This document shows, one piece after another, positions 1,362 through 10,888 of a stretch of DNA of 10,888 nt. The position numbers and the translations under genes are program-made. Each line of letters opens with the position of its first letter. Within the stretch, counting starts at the first letter, position 1. The notes under the pieces were generated by a model. It was given only the letters and a program-made list of their open reading frames with translations. It made no database searches and was not told the origin of the DNA. Source of the DNA: a virus (lineage: Duplodnaviria; Heunggongvirae; Uroviricota; Caudoviricetes); IMG/VR virus record IMGVR_UViG_2529293142_000034, positions 1 to 10,888 of that record; one strand, given 5' to 3'.

Positions 1362-3657
1362 TTAAATTACTTCGACATTTTGATCATCATTAGCACTTTG
1401 CTGAACGTCGACATTAATGTCATCATCATTCGGCAGAGCCTTATAATATTCTCCCATCATCATTTTATAATGTGCAGCATTATCGCTGTATTCAAATATT
1501 TTCTGGAATATATTGAGATTTTTACTAACCGAGTTTTGGTCTAGAGCAATGTAAAGATCGTCATTTGAATGATGTGAACCGTCATTAATCCAAGATATCA
1601 ATGAATTAAATGCTATTTTTTCATCACCATCAAAATGTTTTTCGAGTTTCCATACATTAAATCCACCTAAAATTTTAAAGTAATTTTCAAGAATTCTTCT
1701 CATTGTGTTTTGTACTGTTGTGCAATTAATATCAGGGCGCCTTATCTCACTCCATAGTAAATCATATGAAGTTTTAATTGGATTGCATGCATGGCTTTCA
1801 ATGAACGATAATTTATCCTTTTTCCTAATGACCCAAAATGTTTCATCAGGACGAGCAGTATCTAAATTTCTATTCATATCGAAAGTTAACTCTTTATGAA
1901 AATAAATATTGTGAGTTAGGAAAAAGACCTGTTTTATACGGCCATTATTGTCTCTAATGTCTTTTATAAGTTTTTTCATTAATGAGCTAACTATAAACAG
2001 AATATCACTATCTAAACTTGATATAGGATCATCAAAGACAACTACTCGATCGTTCATTACACCAGATGTTGAATTACTTCCTTTGATGAGATTATAGAAA
2101 TATAGGAATGTGATAAAAGTTTTCTCACCCTCACTGAGTGTGCTTAGGGCATTATCACCATTTTCACGTACGATTCTATAGCTAAACGAATCGGATGTCG
2201 GTGCAAGGCTAAAATTTTTGAAGCCAAATGATAAAAGTATCTTATTTATAGCAGTGATTGTTGGCGTGACACTGGTTCTTTTAGATTCCTCGCTGGATAT
2301 ATTTTCAATGATATCATCTAATCTGACTTTGTCTTTTTCTAAACCCTTAATTAACCCTTCCTTAGCTCTATTTAACTGTTCCTTATCAGTATTATATTTA
2401 TTTATTTTATCAGCCAGTTCAACTTTAACTATATAATGCCATATTTCTTTTGTTAGTTTTTCTCTTTCCATGCTCCTGTTTTTGTATAGTTCATTATTTT
2501 CAAAAACTTGATTGTTAGCTGCAAGAATGATGTCTAATAATTCTTTGCCAGGCTCTAGAAGTCCTGTCATAGCGACAGGTGTACTTAATTCAGCCAATTT
2601 TCTTTTTGCTTCATCTATATTCCTTGATAATATTGATAGAATTAATTTGGATTTTGTGTTAAACAAATCCAAATCAAGGAAGGCATAGTTCCCTTCATTT
2701 ATTTTCGCAACATATTCATCAAATAAACGATACTCATGAGTATAATTTTTTAGTAATACATTAATGCTTTCTGTTTTTTCTAAATATTTTGTGTCAAAGT
2801 AACTTTCTAAATCCGATTTCAAACTACTGGGCGTATTTTGTTGGCAAAATGGACATTTGGTTTCAAGGTTATCATAGTACTTTATCCCTTCTTTAACCCA
2901 GTCACTGTTATCTAGTTGCCTTATGATTTCGGCAACGCTTGCATCTTCTTTTCCAAGAATTTTCTCTTTCCATATTTCATCGTCAACTATTTTTTTATGT
3001 TGCTAAAATTTGGTAAGGGAATTATATTGTGAACTGTTAGCGAGTCTGAGTAAACACTACCAGCCTTCGATATTAAGTATGGTAACTGGTGTAAATCTAC
3101 TTCTTTTGAATATAGCTCCTCTAATACCTTTGATTTGAATTTTTCCTGGCTGCTTCTTAAACCTTCAAATGCTTTATAGAAGTAATCATCATGTTTTTCT
3201 TTTGATTCCAGCAATCATTTTTGAAATCCAATTCAATTTTTTCAAGTTTTTGATAGATACCTAAATTTGCATTATCATTGTTATTTAAATTTCTTTTCTT
3301 GGAATCTATTGAGCTTTGCTCTTTATCCCTTTGTTGTATCAATTTGTCTATGTTATCTGTGAGCTCTTTTGTTTCTTCACCTAAAGTAAAAATACCTTTA
3401 ATACTATCTCCAGAAAAATTATTTACAACAAAATCCCTGTTGTAGACATAAGGAGTTAATTGATTGTTGTTTTTCCATTTAATCTGGCAAGTTGGAAAGC
3501 CTAAAGCATTATGAATTATTTTGCTAATTGTAGTTTTTCCAGCACCATTTGAGCCATATATGTAATTGATTTTCATTAGAGGCATCATATATTGAACGTC
3601 ATTTCCATATGAACCGGCTTGAGAAACGCTTATAGACTCTATCATTATCTTTTTCAT
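1362..3657 (-). CDS. Cargo gene: RloC/PrrC-like ABC-type ATPase with central CPFC motif and C-terminal putative nuclease domain (about 765 aa when joined); interrupted in this sequence by two homopolymer frameshifts
   Basis: Three adjacent minus-strand ORFs (3157-3657, 2987-3214, 1362-2822) join into one frame if one base is added at the T5 run 3194-3198 and at the T7 run 2990-2996. Walker A YGSNGAGKTT is at 3535-3558; reading the 1362-2822 frame upstream of its TTG start gives ...KYYDNLETKCPFCQQNTPSS (CPFC at 2844-2855). Signature-like LSEGEK, Walker B/D-loop VVVFDDPISSLD (about 2025-2045) and H-loop FFLTHN follow. Family assignment (AAA_13 / RloC-PrrC-like) is from motif recall, not a search. 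Confidence 0.7.
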
Positions 3658-3736
3658 CCTTTAGCTTTGTGTGAGGGGCGTGTCAGTCACGGATTACTAT
3701 TGCAGAATATCCATTTGTTTCAAGATATGTTTTTAT

Positions 3737-3780
3737 ACAGTGGTAAATAAACACAGTGGTAAATAAACACAGTGGTAATC
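3737..3780. repeat. Tandem direct repeat, 16-bp unit ACAGTGGTAAATAAAC x about 2.7, lying 80-125 bp upstream of the cargo gene start
   Basis: Exact copies at 3737-3752 and 3753-3768, partial third copy at 3769-3780 (ACAGTGGTAATC); a related CAAGTGGTTTAGTG follows near 3791. Confidence 0.8.
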
Positions 3781-3880
3781 ACAAAATATTCAAGTGGTTT
3801 AGTGTCATAGAAAGTGAGCATCTACGCAAGAATGTACTAACTCTGAGTTTACAAAATTAAATAATTAATATGCGCGCGCA

Positions 3881-3899
3881 GTGCTTTCCCCGCCTCGCC
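3881..3899 (-). other. cos site: P2/P4-type 19-nt cohesive-end sequence GGCGAGGCGGGGAAAGCAC
   Basis: Reverse complement of 3881-3899 is exactly GGCGAGGCGGGGAAAGCAC, followed on that strand by CTGCGCGCG..., matching my recollection of the P2/P4 genome left end. It sits between the cargo locus and psu, as expected for an integrated P4. Confidence 0.8.
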
Positions 3900-3999
3900 C
3901 GCCCGCTTTGCGGGGCGGTTTTAATGCAGTTGCACTGACACGCTCAGACCGCGCCGGGAATGGCGCGGTTTGCAGAAAATGAGGCAGGGAAACGCATGC

Positions 4000-4033
4000 A
4001 AAGCCATGCACCTTATCGATGCATGGCTTTTTT
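4000..4033. terminator. Intrinsic terminator-like hairpin (10-bp stem AAAGCCATGC / GCATGGCTTT, 11-nt loop) with a 3-prime T-tract on the plus strand and an A-tract on the other side; probably bidirectional, just downstream of psu
   Basis: Stem pairs 4000-4009 with 4021-4030, followed by TTT at 4031-4033 (T-run 4028-4033). Lies about 30 bp beyond the corrected psu stop (4064-4066). Confidence 0.5.
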
Positions 4034-4063
4034 CAGTAAAAACGGGCGGATTTTCGGGGAATT

Positions 4064-4635
4064 TTACACTGACTGACGTGATGCCAGTTGCGCACTTTTA
4101 CGCGAAAAAATCATGTTCTGCGCAGGGGTGAATTTTTCACGGCTGTCATCCACCGAAGCCGCGTCAGGCCTGAATCCGATGGTCGTTAAAATGTCGCTAT
4201 CCTGTGCGGAATAATTAATTTTTCCCCCTTCGCAAGCCAGGACAGAAGGGCTTCACGCAGGGCATCTGTGGCACGCTGTATGGCACAGTTTCGGGCAATG
4301 GCCGTCAGCTCACTGTATCCCATCAGCTCCGGTGCCAGTGCCGCCGCCAGTGCTGTGCCGTGCTGCTGCATAAAATCATTCAGCCGGTCGCGGATGCTGA
4401 TGTGCTGAACGGCTTCATGCGAACGAATATAACGACCGGCGGCCTGATTCACCTGCCATTTTCTGACTTCGATAATATTGCGTAATTCGTCCAGGCGACT
4501 GACGTTTCTGCCTTCCCCGGACAGAAGCCGCAGATATTCCTGTTCGGCCGCAGCCAGCTCATTTTTGCGTTGCAGCCATGCTGCTTTGTTATTCTGACAG
4601 GTGTCAAAGGCCTGCTGTAAGGCTGTGCTTTCCAT
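4064..4635 (-). CDS. psu: Psu polarity-suppression / capsid-decoration protein (190 aa after a one-base correction); C-terminus out of frame here because of a homopolymer indel
   Basis: ORF 4186-4635 (149 aa) ends ...LSWLAKGEKLIIPHRIATF*. The adjacent frame reads KINYSAQDSDILTTIGFRPDAASVDDSREKFTPAQNMIFSRKSAQLASRQSV* to a stop at 4064-4066. The join needs one extra T in the T5 run 4219-4223 and gives 139+51 = 190 aa, the length of P4 Psu as I recall it. Confidence 0.85.
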
Positions 4636-4707
4636 CGTTATCTCTTTCTCATCATGCTGAAGAATAAAATACGGTGTGCGGCGACGGCCGGTGTTAACCG
4701 GCAGCCC

Positions 4708-5208
4708 TCATTCCAGACGCAGCGAATATGATTGTGTTTTTAAGCGTACTGGCGGCAGTTCCTGTTTTTCATGCAGGCTTTCTGCCAGTTCGTCCGGCGT
4801 GACCGGGCGGACAATGAAACGGTTGATGGTCTGAAGCGTTTTAAACACCAGACCACAGCCCGGATCCGTGCACACATAAAAACGCTCGGTGACTTCCTGA
4901 GACAGACGCCTCGATGTTCTTGACAGTGCAAGGCCTTTACATCTCCGACAACAATATCCGGTAACAAGCATTCTTTTCGGGCGTTTCATACTGCCGGAGG
5001 CTGACGTCAGTGAATCGCGGTATCTCTGTTTGCCTGAAATGTATTCCATTCCTGAATCTTTACTGTCAGAGAAAAAGCTTTCACTCGCTTCAAATGTCGC
5101 AGAGCAATAAATATTCCGGCACTGTGCAATCATTATCTTGGTGCCATCGTCCATGAAATGTGCGCGGCGGGTGTGAGCAACATGTCCACACGACGGGCAG
5201 TAAATCAT
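4708..5208 (-). CDS. delta: Delta late-gene transcription activator with two tandem Ogr-type zinc-finger domains (166 aa)
   Basis: Intact 166-aa ORF with two C-x2-C-x22-C-x4-C modules (CPSCGHVAHTRRAHFMDDGTKIMIAQCRNIYC and CCRRCKGLALSRTSRRLSQEVTERFYVCTDPGC). Its ATG (5208-5206) overlaps the sid stop as ATGA. Confidence 0.9.
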   Translation of the reverse strand: MIYCPSCGHVAHTRRAHFMDDGTKIMIAQCRNIYCSATFEASESFFSDSKDSGMEYISGKQRYRDSLTSASGSMKRPKRMLVTGYCCRRCKGLALSRTSRRLSQEVTERFYVCTDPGCGLVFKTLQTINRFIVRPVTPDELAESLHEKQELPPVRLKTQSYSLRLE

Positions 5209-5938
5209 GACAGCAGTCCTCTGGCCTTAAGCTCTGCTCCCTGCTGGTCTATTTTGTCCTGCCACACCTTGCGCTGTGCCGGTGTGCCTGCCACCTCATA
5301 ATCCATGTGCGGGAGTGTTGCCGCTGACAGTCCGGTCAGCCGGAGAACCGGCTCACCGGTGAGGCTGATTTGCATCTGTTTTATTTTCTGTTCCAGCGAT
5401 GATTTCACCTGCTGCATGACAGCCTTTTCCGGTGCGACGTAGCCCTGATGGCCGGTGGCGTTGGCGAGCGGATTTTCCTGTACCAGAATGCTCAGATGCA
5501 TTGCCCGGACAAGCGCCTCACAGGTTTCATTCAGGGCGTGTTCCAGCTCATGCTCTGCATACAGACTCAGCAGGTGATGATGTGCCTTCCGGTAGGCGGT
5601 GGCCGTGCTGTCACACGCCCCTTTCAGGCGTTCACGTTCAAAATTCAGCACCACGGCCAGATTGTCATATTCCTGTACCAGCTCCCGGCGTGCCACGCGC
5701 TCAATGTGGCGCTGTTTCAGCTCGTCGCTCAGGACACCACCGGCTGCACGAAAGGCTGTGCGCCAGTCATCAGCGTCATTTCCGTCGGCCTGCGCCAGCG
5801 CATTTTTTCCTGCTCTGCCCGTTCAATGGCCTTGACGGTCTCATCCATCAGTCGGGCGTTCTCAAGGTGGGCGGCTCTGGCCTTTTCCAGTTGTGCCAGT
5901 GCGGGTTGCAGATATTCAGGGATGGTGTTGTCAGACAT
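5205..5938 (-). CDS. sid: Sid capsid size-determination (external scaffold) protein (244 aa after a one-base correction); split in this sequence by a homopolymer indel
   Basis: ORFs 5729-5956 and 5205-5696 join if one T is added to the T6 run 5803-5808: ...AIERAEQEK + NALAQADGNDADDWRTAFRAAGGVLSDELKQRHIER + VARRELV.... Starting from ATG 5938 (GAGGAG Shine-Dalgarno 7 nt upstream) gives 45+36+163 = 244 aa, the P4 Sid length as I recall it. Confidence 0.85.
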
Positions 5939-5972
5939 TTTCCGGCTCCTCGTCACTTCAGGTTAAGAAAAT

Positions 5973-6028
5973 TGTGACGTACACCGGACAACAACACGAC
6001 GCATTGCAGATGTGCCAGTCCTGACACA
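5973..6028 (-). promoter_or_regulatory. Candidate late promoter for sid-delta-psu with two TGT-N12-ACA activator sites of the Ogr/Delta type, centres 38 bp apart
   Basis: TGT-N12-ACA read at 5973-5990 and 6011-6028. If the distal site is centred near -55, the start of transcription falls about 5964 and the proximal site near -18, leaving a roughly 25-nt leader before sid ATG 5938. The -55/-18 arrangement is recalled for P4 late promoters. Confidence 0.55.
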
Positions 6029-6106
6029 GGAGACTCATCCTCAGACCGGCAAGCCAGGAAAAGGTCGCAGGAAAAACCGGCTTACTGTTTGTTTTTTTAT
6101 ATTTTA

Positions 6107-6220
6107 CTGTTCACCTCTGTTCACCATAAGAAAAAAGATAAGTAATACAGTAAGTTAAAGGGTGAACAATCGCAGTAATGACTGTTCACCGTCTGTTCAC
6201 CACTGTTCACCCGTTCATGG
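6107..6220. repeat. Phased 9-mer repeats CTGTTCACC (five direct copies, one inverted, one degenerate) in the divergent control region between sid and alpA
   Basis: Direct copies at 6107-6115, 6117-6125, 6182-6190, 6193-6201 and 6203-6211 (10-11 bp spacing within each cluster); inverted copy GGTGAACAA at 6161-6169; degenerate CGTTCATGG at 6212-6220. Existence is certain; function is inferred. Confidence 0.8.
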
Positions 6221-6295
6221 ACTTTTTGTGCTGTTTATTACTTTTTATTTTTATTAATTAACTGAAATAAATAAGAAAAACAATTTGTATTTCAC

Positions 6296-6301
6296 TATAA
6301 T
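6296..6301 (+). promoter_or_regulatory. Consensus -10 hexamer TATAAT facing alpA; candidate early promoter element
   Basis: TATAAT at 6296-6301 in an AT-rich stretch; no convincing -35 at 17 bp spacing, so this is weak. Confidence 0.25.
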
Positions 6302-6490
6302 TTTTTCCAGCTCCTTCCAGAGCGTTTTTAAAAGCTATCTGGCGCTGATGTGCAAAAAACACACAGCCATTGTAAGGCTGCCGGAACAAATCCCCCCTGT
6401 TGCGTCTGCCAAAAATATTCACAAAATAAAGCGCTACCCCGAAGCCGGACGGACTTATCCGGTGCTGTATGGACATTACGAGGTAGCCCG

Positions 6491-6760
6491 ATGCTAAGCC
6501 TGTTTTTTCTCCCCGTCTCCTGCCCCTGTGACGCCACTGATGCCGCTGCCGGACATCACGCAGGTAGCGTTTTTTTACGCTGCCGGAAGTGATGCACCTG
6601 TGCGGCCTGTCACGCTCGACCATCTATGAACTCATCCGTAAGGGGGAATTTCCGCCGCAGGTGAGTCTTGGCGGTAAAAAATGTGGCCTGGCTGCACTCT
6701 GAAATCACCGCATGGATGGCCGGGCGCATTGCCGGACGCAAACGGGGGTACGACGCATGA
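6491..6760 (+). CDS. alpA: AlpA-family (Vis/excisionase-like) helix-turn-helix regulator; reading frame broken twice at homopolymers in this sequence
   Basis: Core at 6580-6702 reads [34 protein letters not shown]...; removing one A from the A6 run 6676-6681 continues as ...[29 protein letters not shown] (stop 6758-6760), a close fit to the AlpA-family pattern. No in-frame start precedes the core unless one T is added to the T7 run 6570-6576, which joins it to ATG 6491 (GAGG 7 nt upstream). N-terminal boundary is uncertain. Confidence 0.65.
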
Positions 6761-7158
6761 TGATGCCCGCTCTGCAAAAAGTCCCTTTTTCTGGCTTGCC
6801 TTTTTCCGGCATTTGCGGATATAGTTTTTCTGCTGCCGCAAAATCGGCAGCCGGGCGTGGAAACCCGAGCAATTCACAGGCGGCATATGACGCGCCATGC
6901 GTCTTTTTTTGTGTCGCAATCAACGCCACAGAGCGCCAGATTATGGTGTGGTGTGTGGTCAGTCGTGCAGATGGCATTCCGTGCATCCTGCCCGCGTCCG
7001 CTCATTATGCCGCAGAGTCAATGGTAGCTCAGGCGGGGCAGCCTCCGGGCTGGCCGGTATCCTGTGAAGCCGGTATTTCCACCCCCGTCTGGGCTATCGC
7101 CATCGAGCGTGGAAACTCCGGCGATAGCGTTATTTGCTATTCACAGGAGGCTGCCATC

Positions 7159-7356
7159 ATGGCTACAACCCTCACCCCCTCACACCCTGAATTTGTCTTT
7201 GTGTTTGCGGCTGTCCGTCGCGCAGACCGTCATCCCCGTATCTGCATGCTTCGCACCGTCGCCGGTGATGAACGCAGTGCCCGCCGTTCCCTTGTCCGTG
7301 ACTATGTGCTCTCCCTTGCTGCCCGTCTGCCGGTGGTGGAGGTGTCCCGTGCGTAA
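7159..7356 (+). CDS. Small early protein (65 aa), possibly an Icd-like cell-division inhibitor
   Basis: ATG 7159 preceded by AGGAGG at 7145-7150 (8-nt spacer); sequence [65 protein letters not shown]. The stop overlaps the next gene start. The Icd-like label is from weak recall of prophage annotations. The same frame is open upstream to 6757, so the true start could lie further upstream. Confidence 0.4.
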
Positions 7357-7636
7357 TAAAAAAGCCCCTCAGACCGTCTCAGCGCGTCATGACGCCCGTG
7401 AACACCTCAGCATTGAGGCTTACCATAAGCTCAACCGCGCCAGCGCCGTATCCCAGTTTGTTGGGGGTGATTTGATTCACCGTGAACTCTCCGGCCTGCA
7501 TCAGCTCTACATTCCGCATATTTTCAGCTACCTGAATGAAGATATTGATTTTGTGCTGAATGAGCTGAAAGCCAAAGGCCTGTGCCGCGATTTTCTCGCC
7601 CAGCAGAAAGACCGGGGAGACAGGACGCATGTTTGA
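7349..7636 (+). CDS. Small early protein (95 aa), possibly the epsilon (derepression) homologue
   Basis: GTG 7349 with GGAGG at 7338-7342; no in-frame ATG exists downstream, so the GTG start is required. It overlaps the upstream stop (GTGCGTAA) and the downstream start (ATGTTTGA). The epsilon assignment is by position and size only. Confidence 0.5.
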
Positions 7637-8084
7637 TTTTCCCCAGCCCGGTGAGATTTACCGTTCTGCCGGTTTTCCCGATGTGGCCGTGGTCGGCATT
7701 CTGGAAGACGGTATTCCGTGGGAAATGCCGTACCGCTGCCCGGACATTGTCTGGAACCCGTACCGCCGTAAATTCAGTATCCTTGTGCGTATCCTCGCTG
7801 ACGGGCGCACCACAGACATCCCGCTGGGGCGTTTTCTGCGGGAATTTACCTGTGACCGTCCTGACCTGTTTAAACGCAGCCCCGTAAACCGGCATGCGGT
7901 ACTGAAAGAAATGGCCGGAGACCCGGAATTACAGAAATGGCGGGAGAAATATCTGGATATTTACCCGCAGGCCCCTGTTCCGGTCAGCCGGGCGGCACCG
8001 GTGGCGCGGGAATGGCGGGAAATTCCCCGCACGGAGCCTGACCCGGAAATCACCCCGGATAACAGTTACCGCAATTATCTGTAA
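7629..8084 (+). CDS. Conserved early-operon protein, 151 aa (orf151-like)
   Basis: Intact ORF whose ATG overlaps the stop of the preceding gene; its size and position before alpha match the P4 left-operon layout as I recall it. Function unknown. Confidence 0.65.
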   Translation: MFDFPQPGEIYRSAGFPDVAVVGILEDGIPWEMPYRCPDIVWNPYRRKFSILVRILADGRTTDIPLGRFLREFTCDRPDLFKRSPVNRHAVLKEMAGDPELQKWREKYLDIYPQAPVPVSRAAPVAREWREIPRTEPDPEITPDNSYRNYL

Positions 8085-8219
8085 TTAAAAAACGACCCCC
8101 GAAAAATTAAATGTGCGTATTCGCGCAGGGATACGCACGTCTTCAGGAGACGCAGATATGCCTTATCAGTTAATGCAACCGGCACGGAATGCAGTCATCT
8201 GTCACAGGGAGGAAAACAA

Positions 8220-8540
8220 ATGAAAACACCCTTACCGCCCGTCTTACGCGCTGCCCTTTACCGTCGCGCTGTCGCCTGTGCCTGGCTGACCGTGTGCGAA
8301 CGTCAGCACCGCTACCCGCATCTCACCCTTGAGTCACTGGAGGCGGCCATCGCCGCTGAGCTGGAAGGCTTTTATCTGCGCCAGCACGGTGAGGAAAAAG
8401 GGCGTCAGATAGCCTGTGCCCTGCTGGAAGATTTAATGGAATCCGGCCCCCTGAAGGCCGCGCCGTCGCTGTCCTTTCTCGGGCTGGTTGTGATGGATGA
8501 ACTCTGTGCCCGTCACATAAAAGCGCCGGTACTGCACTGA
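8220..8540 (+). CDS. Conserved early-operon protein, 106 aa (orf106-like)
   Basis: Intact ORF with GGGAGG upstream of ATG 8220; it ends 14 bp before the alpha start. Function unknown. Confidence 0.65.
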
Positions 8541-8554
8541 AGGAGAACAACACC

Positions 8555-10888
8555 ATGAAAATGAACGTAACCGCCACCGTCAGCCATGCACTCGGCCACT
8601 GGCCGCGTATCCTCCCGGCGCTGGGGATTCAGGTGCTGAAGAACCGTCATCAGCCCTGTCCGGTCTGTGGCGGGAGTGACCGCTTCCGTTTTGATGACAG
8701 GGAGGGGCGCGGCACCTGGTACTGCAATCAGTGTGGTGCCGGTGACGGCCTGAAACTGGTTGAAAAGGTGTTTGGTGTTTCCCCGTCCGATGCGGCCGCA
8801 AAGGTGGCTGCCGTGACCGGCAGCCTGCCCCCGGCTGACCCGGCAGTGACGGCTGCCGCCGGTGCTGAAACAGACGCTGCCCGGAAGAACGCCGCCGCAC
8901 TGGCACAAACCCTGATGGCGAAAACCCGTCCCGGAACCGGTAACGCCTACCTGACCCGCAAGGGCTTTCCCGGCCGGGAATGCCGGATGCTGACCGGCAC
9001 ACACAGAGCCGGTGGCGTGAGCTGGCGTGCCGGTGACCTTGTGGTGCCACTGTATGACGACAGCGGCGAACTGGTTAACCTTCAGTTAATCAGTGCTGAC
9101 GGCCGTAAGCGCACCCTGAAAGGCGGACAGGTCAGGGGCACCTGTCACACCCTTGAAGGACAGAATCAGGCCGGAAAACGTCTGTGGATAGCGGAGGGAT
9201 ACGCGACCGCACTTACCGTGCATCACCTGACCGGTGAAACGGTGATGGTGGCGCTTTCTTCCGTGAATCTCCTTTCTCTGGCCAGCCTTGCCCGGCAGAA
9301 GCATCCGGCCTGTCAGATTGTCCTTGCTGCTGACCGTGACCTCAGCGGTGACGGCCAGAAAAAAGCCGCCGCAGCCGCAGATGCGTGTGAAGGTGTTGTT
9401 GCCCTGCCGCCGGTCTTCGGTGACTGGAATGATGCCTTCACGCAGTACGGCGGGGAAGCCACCCGTAAGGCCATTTATGATGCCATCCGGCCACCGGCTG
9501 AAAGCCCGTTCGACACCATGAGCGAAGCGGAGTTTTCCGCCATGAGTACCAGCGAAAAGGCCATGCGTATCTATGAGCATTACGGCGAGGCGCTCGCGGT
9601 CGATGCCAACGGCCAGCTTCTGTCCCGCTATGAAAATGGTGTCTGGAAGGTGCTGCCGCCACAGGACTTTGCCCGGGATGTGGCCGGGCTGTTTCAGCGT
9701 CTGCGCGCGCCGTTCTCCTCCGGGAAGGTGGCCTCCGTGGTGGACACCCTGAAGCTGATTATTCCGCAGCAGGAAGCCCCCTCCCGCCGCCTGATTGGCT
9801 TTCGTAACGGCGTGCTCGACACGCAGAACGGCACGTTCCACCCGCACAGTCCGTCACACTGGATGCGCACCCTGTGTGATGTGGATTTCACCCCGCCAGT
9901 GGAAGGGGAAACGCTGGAAACCCACGCCCCCGCGTTCTGGCGCTGGCTTGACCGTGCCGCCGGTGGCCGTGCGGAAAAACGCGACGTGATTCTGGCCGCA
10001 CTGTTTATGGTGCTGGCAAACCGCTACGACTGGCAGCTCTTTCTGGAGGTGACCGGTCCCGGCGGCAGCGGCAAAAGTATCATGGCCGAAATAGCCACCC
10101 TGCTGGCCGGGGAGGATAACGCCACATCGGCCACCATTGAGACGCTGGAATCCCCGCGTGAACGTGCCGCGTTAACTGGCTTCTCACTGATACGCCTGCC
10201 GGACCAGGAAAAATGGAGCGGCGACGGTGCCGGACTCAAGGCCATCACCGGCGGCGATGCGGTGTCCGTTGACCCGAAATACCGGGATGCGTACTCCACG
10301 CACATCCCGGCGGTGATTCTGGCCGTGAACAATAACCCGATGCGCTTCACCGACCGCAGCGGCGGCGTGTCACGCCGGCGGGTGATTATTCACTTCCCTG
10401 AACAGATAGCCCCGCAGGAGCGCGACCCGCAGCTTAAGGACAAAATCACCCGCGAGCTGGCGGTCATCGTGCGTCACCTGATGCAGAAATTCAGCGACCC
10501 GATGCTCGCCCGGTCACTGCTTCAGTCCCAGCAAAACTCAGACGAGGCGCTGAACATCAAACGGGATGCCGACCCGACGTTTGATTTTATCGGCTATCTG
10601 GAAACCCTGCCGCAGACCAGCGGCATGTATATGGGGAACGCCAGTATCATCCCGCGCAATTACCGTAAATACCTCTATCACGCCTATCTGGCCTACATGG
10701 AGGCAAACGGCTACCGGAACGTACTCAGTCTGAAAATGTTCGGGCTGGGGCTGCCGGTGATGCTGAAGGAATACGGACTGAATTACGAGAAGCGCCATAC
10801 CAAACAGGGGATACAGACCAACCTGACGCTGAAAGAGGAAAGCTACGGCGACTGGCTGCCAAAATGTGACGACCCTGCAACAACCTGA
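8555..10888 (+). CDS. alpha: Alpha protein: P4-type primase/helicase (zinc finger + Toprim primase + D5-like NTPase), 777 aa, complete
   Basis: AGGAG 9 nt upstream of ATG 8555. N-terminal zinc-binding motif CPVCGGSDRFRFDD...CNQCG, Toprim-like acidic region (EGYATAL ... LAADRDLSGDG) and Walker A GPGGSGKS at 10055-10078. The 777-aa length equals that of P4 alpha as I recall it. Confidence 0.93.
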   Translation: MKMNVTATVSHALGHWPRILPALGIQVLKNRHQPCPVCGGSDRFRFDDREGRGTWYCNQCGAGDGLKLVEKVFGVSPSDAAAKVAAVTGSLPPADPAVTAAAGAETDAARKNAAALAQTLMAKTRPGTGNAYLTRKGFPGRECRMLTGTHRAGGVSWRAGDLVVPLYDDSGELVNLQLISADGRKRTLKGGQVRGTCHTLEGQNQAGKRLWIAEGYATALTVHHLTGETVMVALSSVNLLSLASLARQKHPACQIVLAADRDLSGDGQKKAAAAADACEGVVALPPVFGDWNDAFTQYGGEATRKAIYDAIRPPAESPFDTMSEAEFSAMSTSEKAMRIYEHYGEALAVDANGQLLSRYENGVWKVLPPQDFARDVAGLFQRLRAPFSSGKVASVVDTLKLIIPQQEAPSRRLIGFRNGVLDTQNGTFHPHSPSHWMRTLCDVDFTPPVEGETLETHAPAFWRWLDRAAGGRAEKRDVILAALFMVLANRYDWQLFLEVTGPGGSGKSIMAEIATLLAGEDNATSATIETLESPRERAALTGFSLIRLPDQEKWSGDGAGLKAITGGDAVSVDPKYRDAYSTHIPAVILAVNNNPMRFTDRSGGVSRRRVIIHFPEQIAPQERDPQLKDKITRELAVIVRHLMQKFSDPMLARSLLQSQQNSDEALNIKRDADPTFDFIGYLETLPQTSGMYMGNASIIPRNYRKYLYHAYLAYMEANGYRNVLSLKMFGLGLPVMLKEYGLNYEKRHTKQGIQTNLTLKEESYGDWLPKCDDPATT

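What the first reader, a model, noticed from the sequence alone, without database searches (positions are those of the whole stretch)
2844..2855. CPFC motif inside the long Walker A to Walker B insert: possible Rad50-like zinc hook
The roughly 500 residues between Walker A and the signature/Walker B region are rich in K/E/L and look like coiled coil, and a CxxC motif (KCPFCQ) sits inside them. This is how the zinc hook of Rad50 and RloC is arranged, and in RloC it has been proposed to couple a DNA-damage signal to nuclease activation. If so, the effector might be triggered by DNA damage during infection rather than by a specific phage protein.
Basis: partly seen in the sequence, partly recalled or inferred. 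Interest (0 to 1): 0.6.

Follow-up and report, generated by a model that had tools for sequence, protein, structure and literature searches.

The report
RloC-type zinc-hook motif, P4 satellite
The CPFC motif is real and strictly conserved, and it matches the already described "zinc hook" of the RloC family of DNA-break-sensing tRNA-cutting defence enzymes, here carried as the only cargo gene of a P4-like satellite phage, so it is a new family member and not a new kind of system.

Summary
Window 2844-2855 on the minus strand reads Cys-Pro-Phe-Cys, which is C265-C268 of a 761-aa protein. In this window the gene is broken by two 1-nt homopolymer deletions. It is intact in two other E. coli genomes.

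The protein matches Pfam AAA_13 over its full length and PADLOC PDC-S06. Several homologues carry the source name "wobble nucleotide-excising tRNase" (RloC). CPFCQ is essentially invariant in 472 homologues (27-100% identity), as conserved as Walker A, Walker B and the proposed Arg-Glu-His nuclease triad. No other Cys or His in the insert is invariant.

The motif aligns with the published zinc-hook cysteines of Geobacillus RloC (C288/C291).

AlphaFold2 and coevolution place CPFC at the turn of a short helix-knuckle-helix hairpin. That hairpin appears to cap the head-distal end of the helical protrusion. The protrusion is more complex than a plain two-stranded coiled coil, and the hairpin module has no significant solved structural match.

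The Rad50-like hook and DNA-damage trigger were proposed and partly tested for RloC in 2008-2014. Zinc binding and dimerisation are untested for this clade.

Verdict: real feature, interpretation largely right, a new member of a known kind, modest interest.

The parts
1362..3645 (-). RloC-family (Pfam AAA_13, PADLOC PDC-S06) ABC-ATPase/anticodon-nuclease gene. The intact allele encodes 761 aa; in the window it is split into three frames.
   Evidence: Pfam AAA_13 2.8e-159 over residues 11-719. PADLOC PDC-S06 6e-259 and PrrC 3.6e-10 over the C-terminal part. 99.9% identical intact copies in E. coli WL164 and BEN5202.
3194..3198 (-). Frameshift 1: an A5 run where intact alleles have A6
   Evidence: Alignment of the window with WL164 and BEN5202.
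2990..2996 (-). Frameshift 2: an A7 run where intact alleles have A8
3532..3555 (-). Walker A, GSNGAGKT (aa 31-38)
   Evidence: Translation. G31, G36 and K37 are each present in 99.6% of 472 homologues.
2283..3369 (-). Helical insert (aa 93-455): two-helix stalk, junction, three-helix bundle and hook hairpin
   Evidence: AlphaFold2 secondary structure. Antiparallel coevolution bands. Composition.
2775..2966 (-). Hook module (aa 228-291): helix (..NSDWVxxG..), CPFCQ knuckle, helix (..L..YFD)
   Evidence: The two strongest couplings in the whole protein are 228-291 and 258-272. The antiparallel band i+j~528 is centred on residue 264/265. AlphaFold2 shows helices 239-245 and 248-258, a knuckle at 259-275 with bridges at 264 and 271, and helix 276-283.
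2841..2855 (-). CPFCQ (C265 P266 F267 C268 Q269), the putative zinc-hook cysteines; the finding itself covers 2844-2855
   Evidence: Conservation in 472 homologues: C265 99.8%, P266 100%, F267 93.6% (Y 6.1%), C268 100%, Q269 99.8%.
2124..2138 (-). ABC signature LSEGE (aa 504-508)
   Evidence: S505 and G507 are 100% conserved.
2028..2045 (-). Walker B VVVFDD (aa 535-540)
   Evidence: D539 and D540 are 100% conserved.
1362..1790 (-). C-terminal PrrC/RloC-like anticodon-nuclease region (aa ~620-761) with the candidate triad R650 (1698-1700), E654 (1686-1688) and H692 (1572-1574)
   Evidence: The PADLOC PrrC model matches aa 487-727. Conservation: R650 99.8%, E654 98.5%, H692 93.4%. The R-x3-E spacing and a His 38 residues downstream compare with R692/E696/H737 of Geobacillus RloC and R320/E324/H356 of PrrC (PMC2610378).
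1..1263 (+). P4-type integrase, one border of the cargo hotspot
   Evidence: 96.6% identity to phage P4 over 75% of the window; the unmatched part is the int-psu interval. Annotation of the equivalent loci.
4186..4635 (-). psu (polarity suppression) gene, the other border of the hotspot; also broken in the window

Best explanation
The CPFC motif is the RloC-type zinc hook of an RloC-family enzyme, which fuses a Rad50/SMC-like ABC ATPase to a C-terminal PrrC-like anticodon nuclease. The gene is the single cargo gene in the int-psu hotspot of a P4-like satellite prophage. The ATPase head carries a helical protrusion of about 360 residues. CPFCQ forms a knuckle at the turn of a short helix-knuckle-helix hairpin, and coevolution places that hairpin at the end of the protrusion farthest from the head. 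Each chain offers only two conserved metal ligands, so the most likely arrangement is that two protrusions share one zinc ion through four cysteines, as in Rad50. Following the published RloC work, this joint would keep the nuclease silent. Binding of DNA ends to the heads, together with ATP hydrolysis, would release it. The nuclease would then cut tRNA anticodon loops and stop translation in an infected or DNA-damaged cell. Shown here: the motif and its conservation, homology to the RloC hook, the family assignment, the topology inferred from AlphaFold2 and coevolution, and the mobile-element context. Inferred: zinc binding, dimerisation through the hook, the regulatory role, the tRNA target and the trigger.
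For: The motif is present and invariant. The protein matches AAA_13 over its full length and PDC-S06, and the PADLOC PrrC model matches its C-terminal part. Several homologues are named 'wobble nucleotide-excising tRNase' by their source. CPFC aligns with Geobacillus RloC C288/C291, and a CPFCQ-type protein sits in that column of the 2008 alignment. That paper lists an E. coli APEC O1 protein of 738 aa, flanked by phage replication and capsid genes, as an RloC orthologue; a 49-52% identical relative has the same kind of flanks in a P2-like prophage. No other Cys or His in the insert is invariant: position 145 is Cys in 86% and otherwise F, V or A. The head is closest to Rad50 and SMC heads. 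In the coevolution analysis, couplings 228-291 and 258-272 are the strongest in the protein. The antiparallel bands give one coherent topology that puts the hairpin at the distal end. The hairpin has fewer couplings to the rest of the protein than expected, 11 against 27. Couplings that fit AlphaFold2 beta-strand pairs in the head serve as positive controls. The fragment model of aa 220-396 is confident (pLDDT 87, pTM 0.76). The only solved sequences resembling the hook profile are CP-x-C zinc knuckles, and the P. furiosus Rad50 hook ranks 12th-13th of 177,635. Literature on other orthologues: hook mutations activate the RloC nuclease, only the wild type is zinc-sensitive, the ATPase is DNA-dependent, and double-strand-break inducers activate RloC in vivo (PMC2610378, PMC3458546, PMC3874168).
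Against: There is no direct evidence of zinc binding or dimerisation for this clade. The N-terminal flank is a set of short helices, not one long coiled-coil arm. pLDDT around the knuckle is only 62-78. The hook-plus-bundle fragment has no significant structural match, Rad50 hooks included (best E=3.5), and the profile hit to 1L8D is not significant (E=1.4). The alignment to Geobacillus RloC is weak outside the hook core (25% identity) and uses a machine-read partial sequence. A 2025 preprint describes a different E. coli PDC-S06 protein (WP_032269946.1) as predicted antiphage only by PADLOC, which suggests that DefenseFinder does not call such proteins RloC. The copy in this window is frameshifted twice.
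Confidence: 0.65

Rival explanations
1. The CPFCQ knuckle is a structural or sensor element within a single chain. It might hold a metal with non-Cys/His ligands or water, or hold no metal, and stabilise a cap domain that binds DNA ends, a phage protein or the enzyme's own nuclease domain. It would not join two protrusions.
For: The motif lies in a compact conserved module (invariant W250 and G254; D249 98.7%; F284 and D285 at least 95% in the 265-sequence set) and not between two long helices. The module has no structural match to solved hooks. Invariant acidic residues are nearby.
Against: No third or fourth Cys or His is conserved. The module has few couplings to the rest of the chain, including the head and the nuclease domain. 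In Geobacillus RloC, the zinc sensitivity depends on the hook cysteines (PMC2610378).
Confidence: 0.17
2. The CxxC is a redox-active dithiol/disulfide switch, of the thioredoxin or Dsb type, that gates the nuclease.
For: CP-x-C resembles oxidoreductase active sites. A Dsb protein and a thioredoxin appear among the weak profile hits (E 0.6-1.8).
Against: The model shows no thioredoxin fold around the motif. The protein is cytoplasmic. Most profile hits are zinc knuckles. Published RloC data point to zinc.
Confidence: 0.04
3. In this particular genome the gene is a dead pseudogene, so the motif is present but has no function here.
For: Two frameshifts split the reading frame.
Against: Up to position 6000, every 1-nt indel relative to BEN5202 is a deletion at or next to a homopolymer run. 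These deletions also break psu and sid, which the satellite needs. That pattern is typical of assembly errors. Apart from the two 1-nt deletions there are only 1-2 mismatches across the 2.45-kb stretch that contains the gene (99.9% identity).
Confidence: 0.2
4. The CxxC is a chance occurrence in a Cys-poor protein.
For: The chance probability in one sequence is about 0.04.
Against: C265 is present in 471 of 472 and C268 in all 472 homologues down to 27% identity.
Confidence: 0.005

Closest known systems
RloC (wobble nucleotide-excising anticodon nuclease; Geobacillus kaustophilus and Acinetobacter baylyi orthologues; Davidov & Kaufmann 2008, Klaiman et al. 2012 and 2014)
   Same: Same domain order: ABC-ATPase head, helical insert with a central C-x-F-C, signature, Walker B, H-loop, then a C-terminal nuclease region with an Arg-x3-Glu...His triad. 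The hook core aligns (WV-x-x-G ... C-x-F-C ... L-x-x-[HY]F). The gene travels as a single cargo gene of integrated mobile elements without a linked restriction-modification system.
   Different: Identity to Geobacillus RloC is low outside the motifs (about 25% over the aligned insert). The motif is CPFCQ, not CAFCG. The protein is shorter (761 against 804 aa). A subfamily-specific Cys145 is present. A 2025 preprint describes another E. coli PDC-S06 protein as called by PADLOC only, not DefenseFinder. No biochemistry exists for this clade.
Rad50 / SbcC / T4 gp46 zinc hook
   Different: The insert is much shorter and is not a continuous two-stranded coiled coil. It contains a junction and a three-helix bundle. 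There is no Mre11/SbcD partner; the nuclease is fused and acts on RNA. Similarity of the hook module to solved hooks is not significant.
PrrC anticodon nuclease
   Same: Shares the ABC motifs and the C-terminal nuclease region (PADLOC PrrC model E=3.6e-10).
   Different: PrrC has no helical or hook insert and is always embedded in a type Ic restriction-modification locus. Neither applies here.
PADLOC candidate system PDC-S06
   Same: Full-length match to model PDLC04890 (E=6e-259). Single-gene system.
   Different: PDC-S06 is only a bioinformatic candidate label. Its 13 models span proteins of 693-862 residues and appear to cover the wider AAA_13/RloC family.
Lamassu LmuB, retron/Septu PtuA, PARIS AriA
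   Same: SMC/Rad50-like ABC ATPases with helical inserts used in phage defence; weak HMM and fold matches.
   Different: These act with separate effector subunits (LmuA, PtuB, AriB). No such partner gene is present here, and they lack the fused PrrC-like domain.

Membership tests
RloC family | ABC-ATPase motifs shared with PrrC (Walker A, signature, Walker B/D-loop, H-loop) | tested here: met
   GSNGAGKT 31-38, LSEGE 504-508, VVVFDD 535-540 and H579 are all at least 99.6% conserved.
RloC family | Long, largely helical insert that splits the ATPase domain and carries a central CXXC | tested here: met
   The insert spans aa 93-455 and is 72% helical. CPFC at 265-268 lies about 172 residues from its start and 187 from its end.
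RloC family | CXXC alignable with the experimentally studied hook of Geobacillus RloC (C288/C291) | tested here: met
   BLASTP aligns 246-268 with DLQEWVREG...CAFC, E=0.003 for the single comparison. The published alignment puts a CPFCQ protein in the same column. The Geobacillus sequence was a machine-read partial sequence.
RloC family | C-terminal anticodon-nuclease region with an Arg/Glu/His catalytic triad | tested here: met
   R650-x3-E654 and H692 are 99.8%, 98.5% and 93.4% conserved. The PrrC HMM covers aa 487-727. I could not align the triad directly to Geobacillus RloC or PrrC because I had no full sequences.
RloC family | tRNA anticodon cleavage with excision of the wobble nucleotide | not testable with these tools
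   Needs biochemistry.
RloC family | Zinc-responsive nuclease activated by hook mutations; DNA-end-dependent ATPase | not testable with these tools
   Known only for Geobacillus RloC (PMC2610378, PMC3458546).
RloC family | Usually unlinked to a restriction-modification locus; often the single cargo of an integrated element | tested here: met
   It is the only gene between P4 int and psu. Relatives sit in the P2 gpA-portal hotspot.
Rad50-type zinc hook | CXXC at the apex of an antiparallel coiled coil protruding from the ATPase head | tested here: inconclusive
   CPFC is at the turn of an antiparallel helical hairpin (band i+j~528) whose base couples to the head-distal turn 351-359. However, the protrusion is a stalk, a junction and a three-helix bundle. 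No coordinates were available, and the bands were chosen post hoc.
Rad50-type zinc hook | Four cysteines from two chains coordinate one zinc ion | not testable with these tools
   Indirect support only: no further conserved Cys or His in the insert.
Rad50-type zinc hook | Hook region resembles solved Rad50 hooks | tested here: not met
   Foldseek of the fragment model found nothing better than E=3.5 and no Rad50 hit. In the profile search 1L8D and 6ZFF scored E=1.4-1.7.
Rad50-type zinc hook | Rad50/SMC-like ATPase head | tested here: met
Rad50-type zinc hook | Works with an Mre11/SbcD nuclease partner | tested here: not met
   No such gene is present in the window or in the equivalent loci.
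PrrC | No helical insert; embedded in a type Ic hsd locus | tested here: not met
   A 360-residue insert is present and there are no hsd genes nearby.
PADLOC PDC-S06 | Match to the PDC-S06 profile; single gene | tested here: met
   PDLC04890 at E=6.4e-259, profile positions 1-727 of 732.

The most novel reading that the evidence does not exclude
The conserved module WV-x-x-G / CPFCQ / L-x-x-YFD may not be a Rad50-style joint between two chains. It may be a distinct sensor cap on a three-helix bundle, with no solved structural counterpart. It could read a phage-specific or DNA-end signal and pass it down the stalk to the fused tRNase. P2 prophages and P4 satellites could then use it as a portable single-gene abortive-infection switch.
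Probability: 0.15. Interest if true: 0.55.

Novelty: new member of a known kind. Interest (0 to 1): 0.3.

Why it matters
This result identifies a PADLOC "candidate" defence gene (PDC-S06) in an E. coli P4-like satellite as a relative of RloC that retains the hook and the nuclease triad. That gives a concrete, testable mechanism for a cargo gene found repeatedly in P2 and P4 hotspots: sensing of DNA ends or damage, coupled through a cysteine hook to tRNA cleavage. It also refines the cartoon of the RloC "coiled-coil/zinc-hook". The predicted protrusion is a stalk, a junction and a three-helix bundle, capped by a strictly conserved helix-knuckle-helix module. This should guide mutagenesis and structural work, since no RloC structure has been solved. 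It does not reveal a new principle.

Tried and rejected
- **PDB sequence search, full protein:** no hit at E<=1.
- **Foldseek against afdb50:** the library was not available.
- **First full-alphabet coevolution run:** timed out. I switched to a 10-class alphabet.
- **Stripe-sum statistic for helix pairing:** it did not discriminate, because short corner stripes dominated and the null set contained true contacts. I replaced it with counts of top-200 couplings per band. Those bands were still chosen after inspection.
- **Scattered medium-strength couplings:** pairs such as 167-349, 100/101/119-331 and 117-281 fit no consistent topology. I treated them as hub or noise artefacts. Contacts between chains cannot be excluded.
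- **An intramolecular zinc site using C145 or C53:** rejected. Both are replaced by hydrophobic residues or Ser in 14-20% of homologues, and C53 lies in the head.
- **Literature search for a solved RloC structure, or for RloC in P4 hotspots:** nothing relevant found.
- **Confirming that APEC O1 YP_852004 belongs to this clade:** The link rests on matching length and flanking genes.
Full report
**1. The observation**

Window 2844-2855 read on the minus strand is TGT CCA TTT TGC, which translates to C-P-F-C within ...ETKCPFCQQNT....

The gene runs from 3645 to 1362 on the minus strand. In the window it occupies three reading frames. Three complete E. coli genomes hold near-identical DNA:
- WL164 and BEN5202 are 99.9% identical and encode one uninterrupted 761-aa protein, WP_001615855.1, annotated "AAA family ATPase".
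- RM10740 is 99.7% identical, but its copy is split by an IS3 insertion.

The window differs from the intact copies by single-base losses in two A-runs: A5 at 3194-3198 against A6, and A7 at 2990-2996 against A8.

Relative to BEN5202, every 1-nt indel up to position 6000 is a deletion at or next to a homopolymer run. Besides the two above, they lie at 4225 (in psu), 4669 (intergenic) and 5808 (in sid). Breaking three genes of a small satellite in this way looks like assembly error more than biology. I therefore worked with the intact protein.

In the intact protein:
- CPFC is C265-C268.
- Walker A is GSNGAGKT at 31-38, the signature LSEGE at 504-508, and Walker B VVVFDD at 535-540.
- The intervening region 93-455 is 35% K+E+L, against 18% elsewhere, and 72% helical in the model.

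A CxxC would arise by chance in about 4% of shuffles of the six cysteines. Conservation rules chance out, as shown next.

**2. Conservation**

The word-indexed search found 1805 homologues. All 120 listed, including the 85 that are 40-44% identical, carry CPFCQ. A profile search of 1.84 billion representative proteins found 6907 clusters at E<=1e-3 and 1871 at E<=1e-30. Scans of genome, metagenome and viral collections added 240 loci. These come from many bacterial phyla and one archaeal metagenome-assembled genome (MAG).

I assembled 472 distinct full-length sequences, 27-100% identical to the query:

| Position | Conservation |
|---|---|
| C265 | 99.8% (one MAG has Tyr) |
| P266 | 100% |
| F267 | 93.6% (Tyr in 6.1%) |
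| C268 | 100% |
| Q269 | 99.8% |
| W250, G254 (upstream) | 100% |
| K37 (Walker A) | 99.6% |
| D539, D540 (Walker B) | 100% |
| H579 (H-loop) | 100% |

The hook motif is therefore as conserved as the catalytic residues. No other Cys or His in the insert is invariant. C145 is 86% conserved and is replaced by F, V or A. C53, in the head, is 80% conserved and is replaced by Ser. If the two cysteines bind a metal tetrahedrally, the other two ligands are not conserved in the same chain.

**3. What the protein is**

- Pfam AAA_13 matches residues 11-719 (E=2.8e-159).
- PADLOC PDC-S06 matches over the full length (E=6e-259). The PADLOC PrrC model matches residues 487-727 (E=3.6e-10). LmuB and AriA hits are weaker.
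- NCBIfam gives nothing specific.
- Several homologues carry the JGI name "wobble nucleotide-excising tRNase", which means RloC.
- R650-x3-E654 and H692 are 99.8%, 98.5% and 93.4% conserved. Their spacing is like the catalytic triads R692/E696/H737 of Geobacillus RloC and R320/E324/H356 of PrrC (PMC2610378).
- No RloC-family structure has been solved.

**4. Homology of the motif to the published RloC hook**

The supplement of Davidov & Kaufmann 2008 prints Geobacillus RloC residues 121-540 aligned with homologues. I rebuilt the Geobacillus fragment from that text. BLASTP aligns our DNSDWVKEGIKYYDNLETKCPFCQ with DLQEWVREGLGLHKGLE--CAFCG. CPFC therefore corresponds to C288/C291, with E=0.003 for that one comparison.

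The last row of the published alignment (Q369M3) reads ...NNDWVNQGRNYGSDSRCPFCQN... and clearly belongs to our clade. Proteins of this type were thus already counted as RloC in 2008.

The same paper lists E. coli APEC O1 YP_852004 (738 aa) as an RloC orthologue flanked by "phage replication initiation, capsid" genes. I found that a 49-52% identical relative lies in P2-like prophages between the gpA replication endonuclease and the portal gene. This holds in E. coli D7 and in 12-18 viral contigs.

**5. Where the motif sits**

I had secondary structure and confidence values for the model but not coordinates. The elements are:
- helices 93-120 and 130-152;
- short helices 167-178, 188-198, 215-221, 239-245 and 248-258;
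- a non-helical stretch 259-275 with two beta-bridges at 264 and 271 that enclose CPFC (pLDDT about 72);
- helices 276-283, 287-318, 326-352, 364-410 and 412-455.

To obtain topology I ran mean-field direct-coupling analysis on the 472 sequences, using a reduced alphabet (effective sequence number 344). Controls behave as expected. Couplings 3-58, 18-56, 491-499 and 606-619 fit beta-strand pairs of the model's head.

The two strongest couplings in the whole protein are 228-291 and 258-272. Among the top 200 couplings, the antiparallel bands are:

| Segments | i+j | Observed / expected |
|---|---|---|
| 95-160 with 395-452 | ~556 | 10 / 0.66 |
| 130-156 with 158-180 | ~311 | 6 / 0.21 |
| 203-230 with 355-392 | ~588 | 4 / 0.32 |
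| 287-320 with 324-356 | ~647 | 5 / 0.26 |
| 324-352 with 356-392 | ~700 | 5 / 0.25 |
| 226-260 with 270-293 | ~528 | 5 / 0.40 |

I chose these bands after seeing the top couplings, so their P-values are optimistic. Even so, they combine into one coherent fold:
- a two-helix stalk;
- a junction where 167-178 folds back along the stalk;
- a distal bundle formed by 205-229 (running away from the head), 287-318 (towards it), 326-352 (away) and 364-395 (towards), with the 353-363 turn at the far end.

Residues 227/229 and 292/296 couple to 351-359. The base of the 228-291 hairpin therefore sits at the far end of the bundle. The centre of that hairpin (528/2 = 264) is the CPFC knuckle.

The hairpin has fewer couplings to the rest of the protein than expected, 11 against 27. 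None of them forms a consistent set with the head or the nuclease domain.

A second AlphaFold2 run on residues 220-396, taken directly from the window, gave pLDDT 87 and pTM 0.76. It reproduced the same elements, with the lowest confidence (68-78) around the knuckle.

**6. How far "Rad50-like" holds**

The fragment model has no significant match among solved structures. The best Foldseek E-value is 3.5, all hits are generic helical bundles, and no Rad50 hook appears.

A profile of the hook module searched against all PDB sequences returns only weak hits. Most are CP-x-C zinc knuckles: FANCL and RNF125 RING domains, ribosomal protein eL42, the WRNIP1 UBZ domain and endonuclease VII. The P. furiosus Rad50 hook entries 1L8D and 6ZFF appear at E=1.4-1.7. 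They rank 12th-13th of 177,635 sequences and align over 32 positions. This is suggestive but not significant.

The fair statement is as follows. The motif is a zinc-knuckle-type CP-x-C at a helical-hairpin tip, at the far end of a protrusion from a Rad50-like head, with only two conserved ligands per chain. That is what a hook needs. The protrusion itself is not a simple two-stranded coiled coil, and similarity of the hook to Rad50 at the structural level is unproven.

**7. Context**

The window is 96.6% identical to satellite phage P4 over 75% of its length. The unmatched quarter is the interval between int and psu. Rfam finds the P4 immunity RNAs: C4 at 7017-7104, isrK and c4-a1b1.

The low-GC interval (30% against 50-60% elsewhere) holds this one gene. 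A promoter-like site lies at 3723-3696 on the minus strand.

An 84% identical copy in Serratia aquatilis lies next to genes matching P4 int, psu and sid. The gene is thus a single-gene cargo of P4 and P2 hotspots. This agrees with the remark in PMC3458546 that rloC is often the only cargo of integrated elements.

**8. Mechanism**

Shown here are the architecture, the conservation and the homology to RloC. The mechanism is inferred from the RloC literature:
- In Geobacillus RloC, hook mutations activate the nuclease and make it independent of the ATPase.
- Zinc inhibits only the wild type.
- The ATPase needs linear DNA.
- Double-strand-break inducers activate RloC in heterologous hosts and in its natural host Acinetobacter (PMC2610378, PMC3458546, PMC3874168).

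The most likely reading for this protein is the same switch. The hook-joined state would keep the nuclease silent. DNA ends plus ATP hydrolysis would release it, and tRNA cleavage would stop translation.

It remains untested for this clade.

**9. Verdict**

The motif is real, non-random and functionally constrained. The main refinement is that the hook is a short conserved helix-knuckle-helix cap on a more elaborate helical protrusion.

This is a new, uncharacterised member of a known family, which PADLOC lists only as candidate PDC-S06. A 2025 preprint describes a different E. coli PDC-S06 protein (WP_032269946.1) as predicted antiphage by PADLOC, in a passage on proteins its DefenseFinder-trained language model scores highly. 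I did not run DefenseFinder on the present protein. Interest is modest.

Noticed in passing
window 4225 (psu), 4669 (intergenic), 5808 (sid): Further 1-nt deletions at or next to homopolymer runs, relative to E. coli BEN5202, truncate psu (149 aa in place of 190) and sid (163 aa in place of 244). Together with the two in the ATPase gene, this suggests systematic homopolymer errors in the assembly the window comes from.
   Followed up: partly
window ~3778: A 16-nt deletion relative to BEN5202 lies between two copies of ACAGTGGTAA, in the intergenic region upstream of the ATPase gene. It looks like a direct-repeat slippage.
   Followed up: no
L243 (E. coli D7) 4212-9265; viral loci L163-L176: A 49-52% identical paralogue clade sits in the P2-like prophage hotspot between the gpA replication endonuclease and the portal gene. 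In strain D7 it lies next to a KAP-family P-loop NTPase gene. The same gene family is therefore cargo of both the helper-phage (P2) and satellite (P4) hotspots.
   Followed up: partly
E. coli RM10740, hit H3 (NZ_CP043821.1 4993862-4997665): In this strain the same gene is split by an IS3-family transposase insertion.
   Followed up: no
L001 (E. coli WL164) 3023-7021: A second, degraded P4-like element lies in tandem next to the intact one. It has a frameshifted integrase and partial primase, delta and DUF5375 genes.
   Followed up: no
L014 (Nitrosomonas MAG): This is the only one of 472 homologues without the first hook cysteine (YPFCQ). It could be a sequencing error or a natural hook mutant.
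   Followed up: no
window 6819-7104 (+): Rfam matches to c4-a1b1 (6819-6871), isrK (6832-6909) and C4 antisense RNA (7017-7104), which together mark the P4 immunity region.
   Followed up: no
protein residues 100-119, 156-167, 331, 344-354 (window about 2590-3350, minus strand): Medium-strength coevolution couplings (167-349, 100/101/119-331, 111-354, 165-344) do not fit the single-chain topology. They may be noise from hub columns, or contacts between chains in an oligomer.
   Followed up: partly
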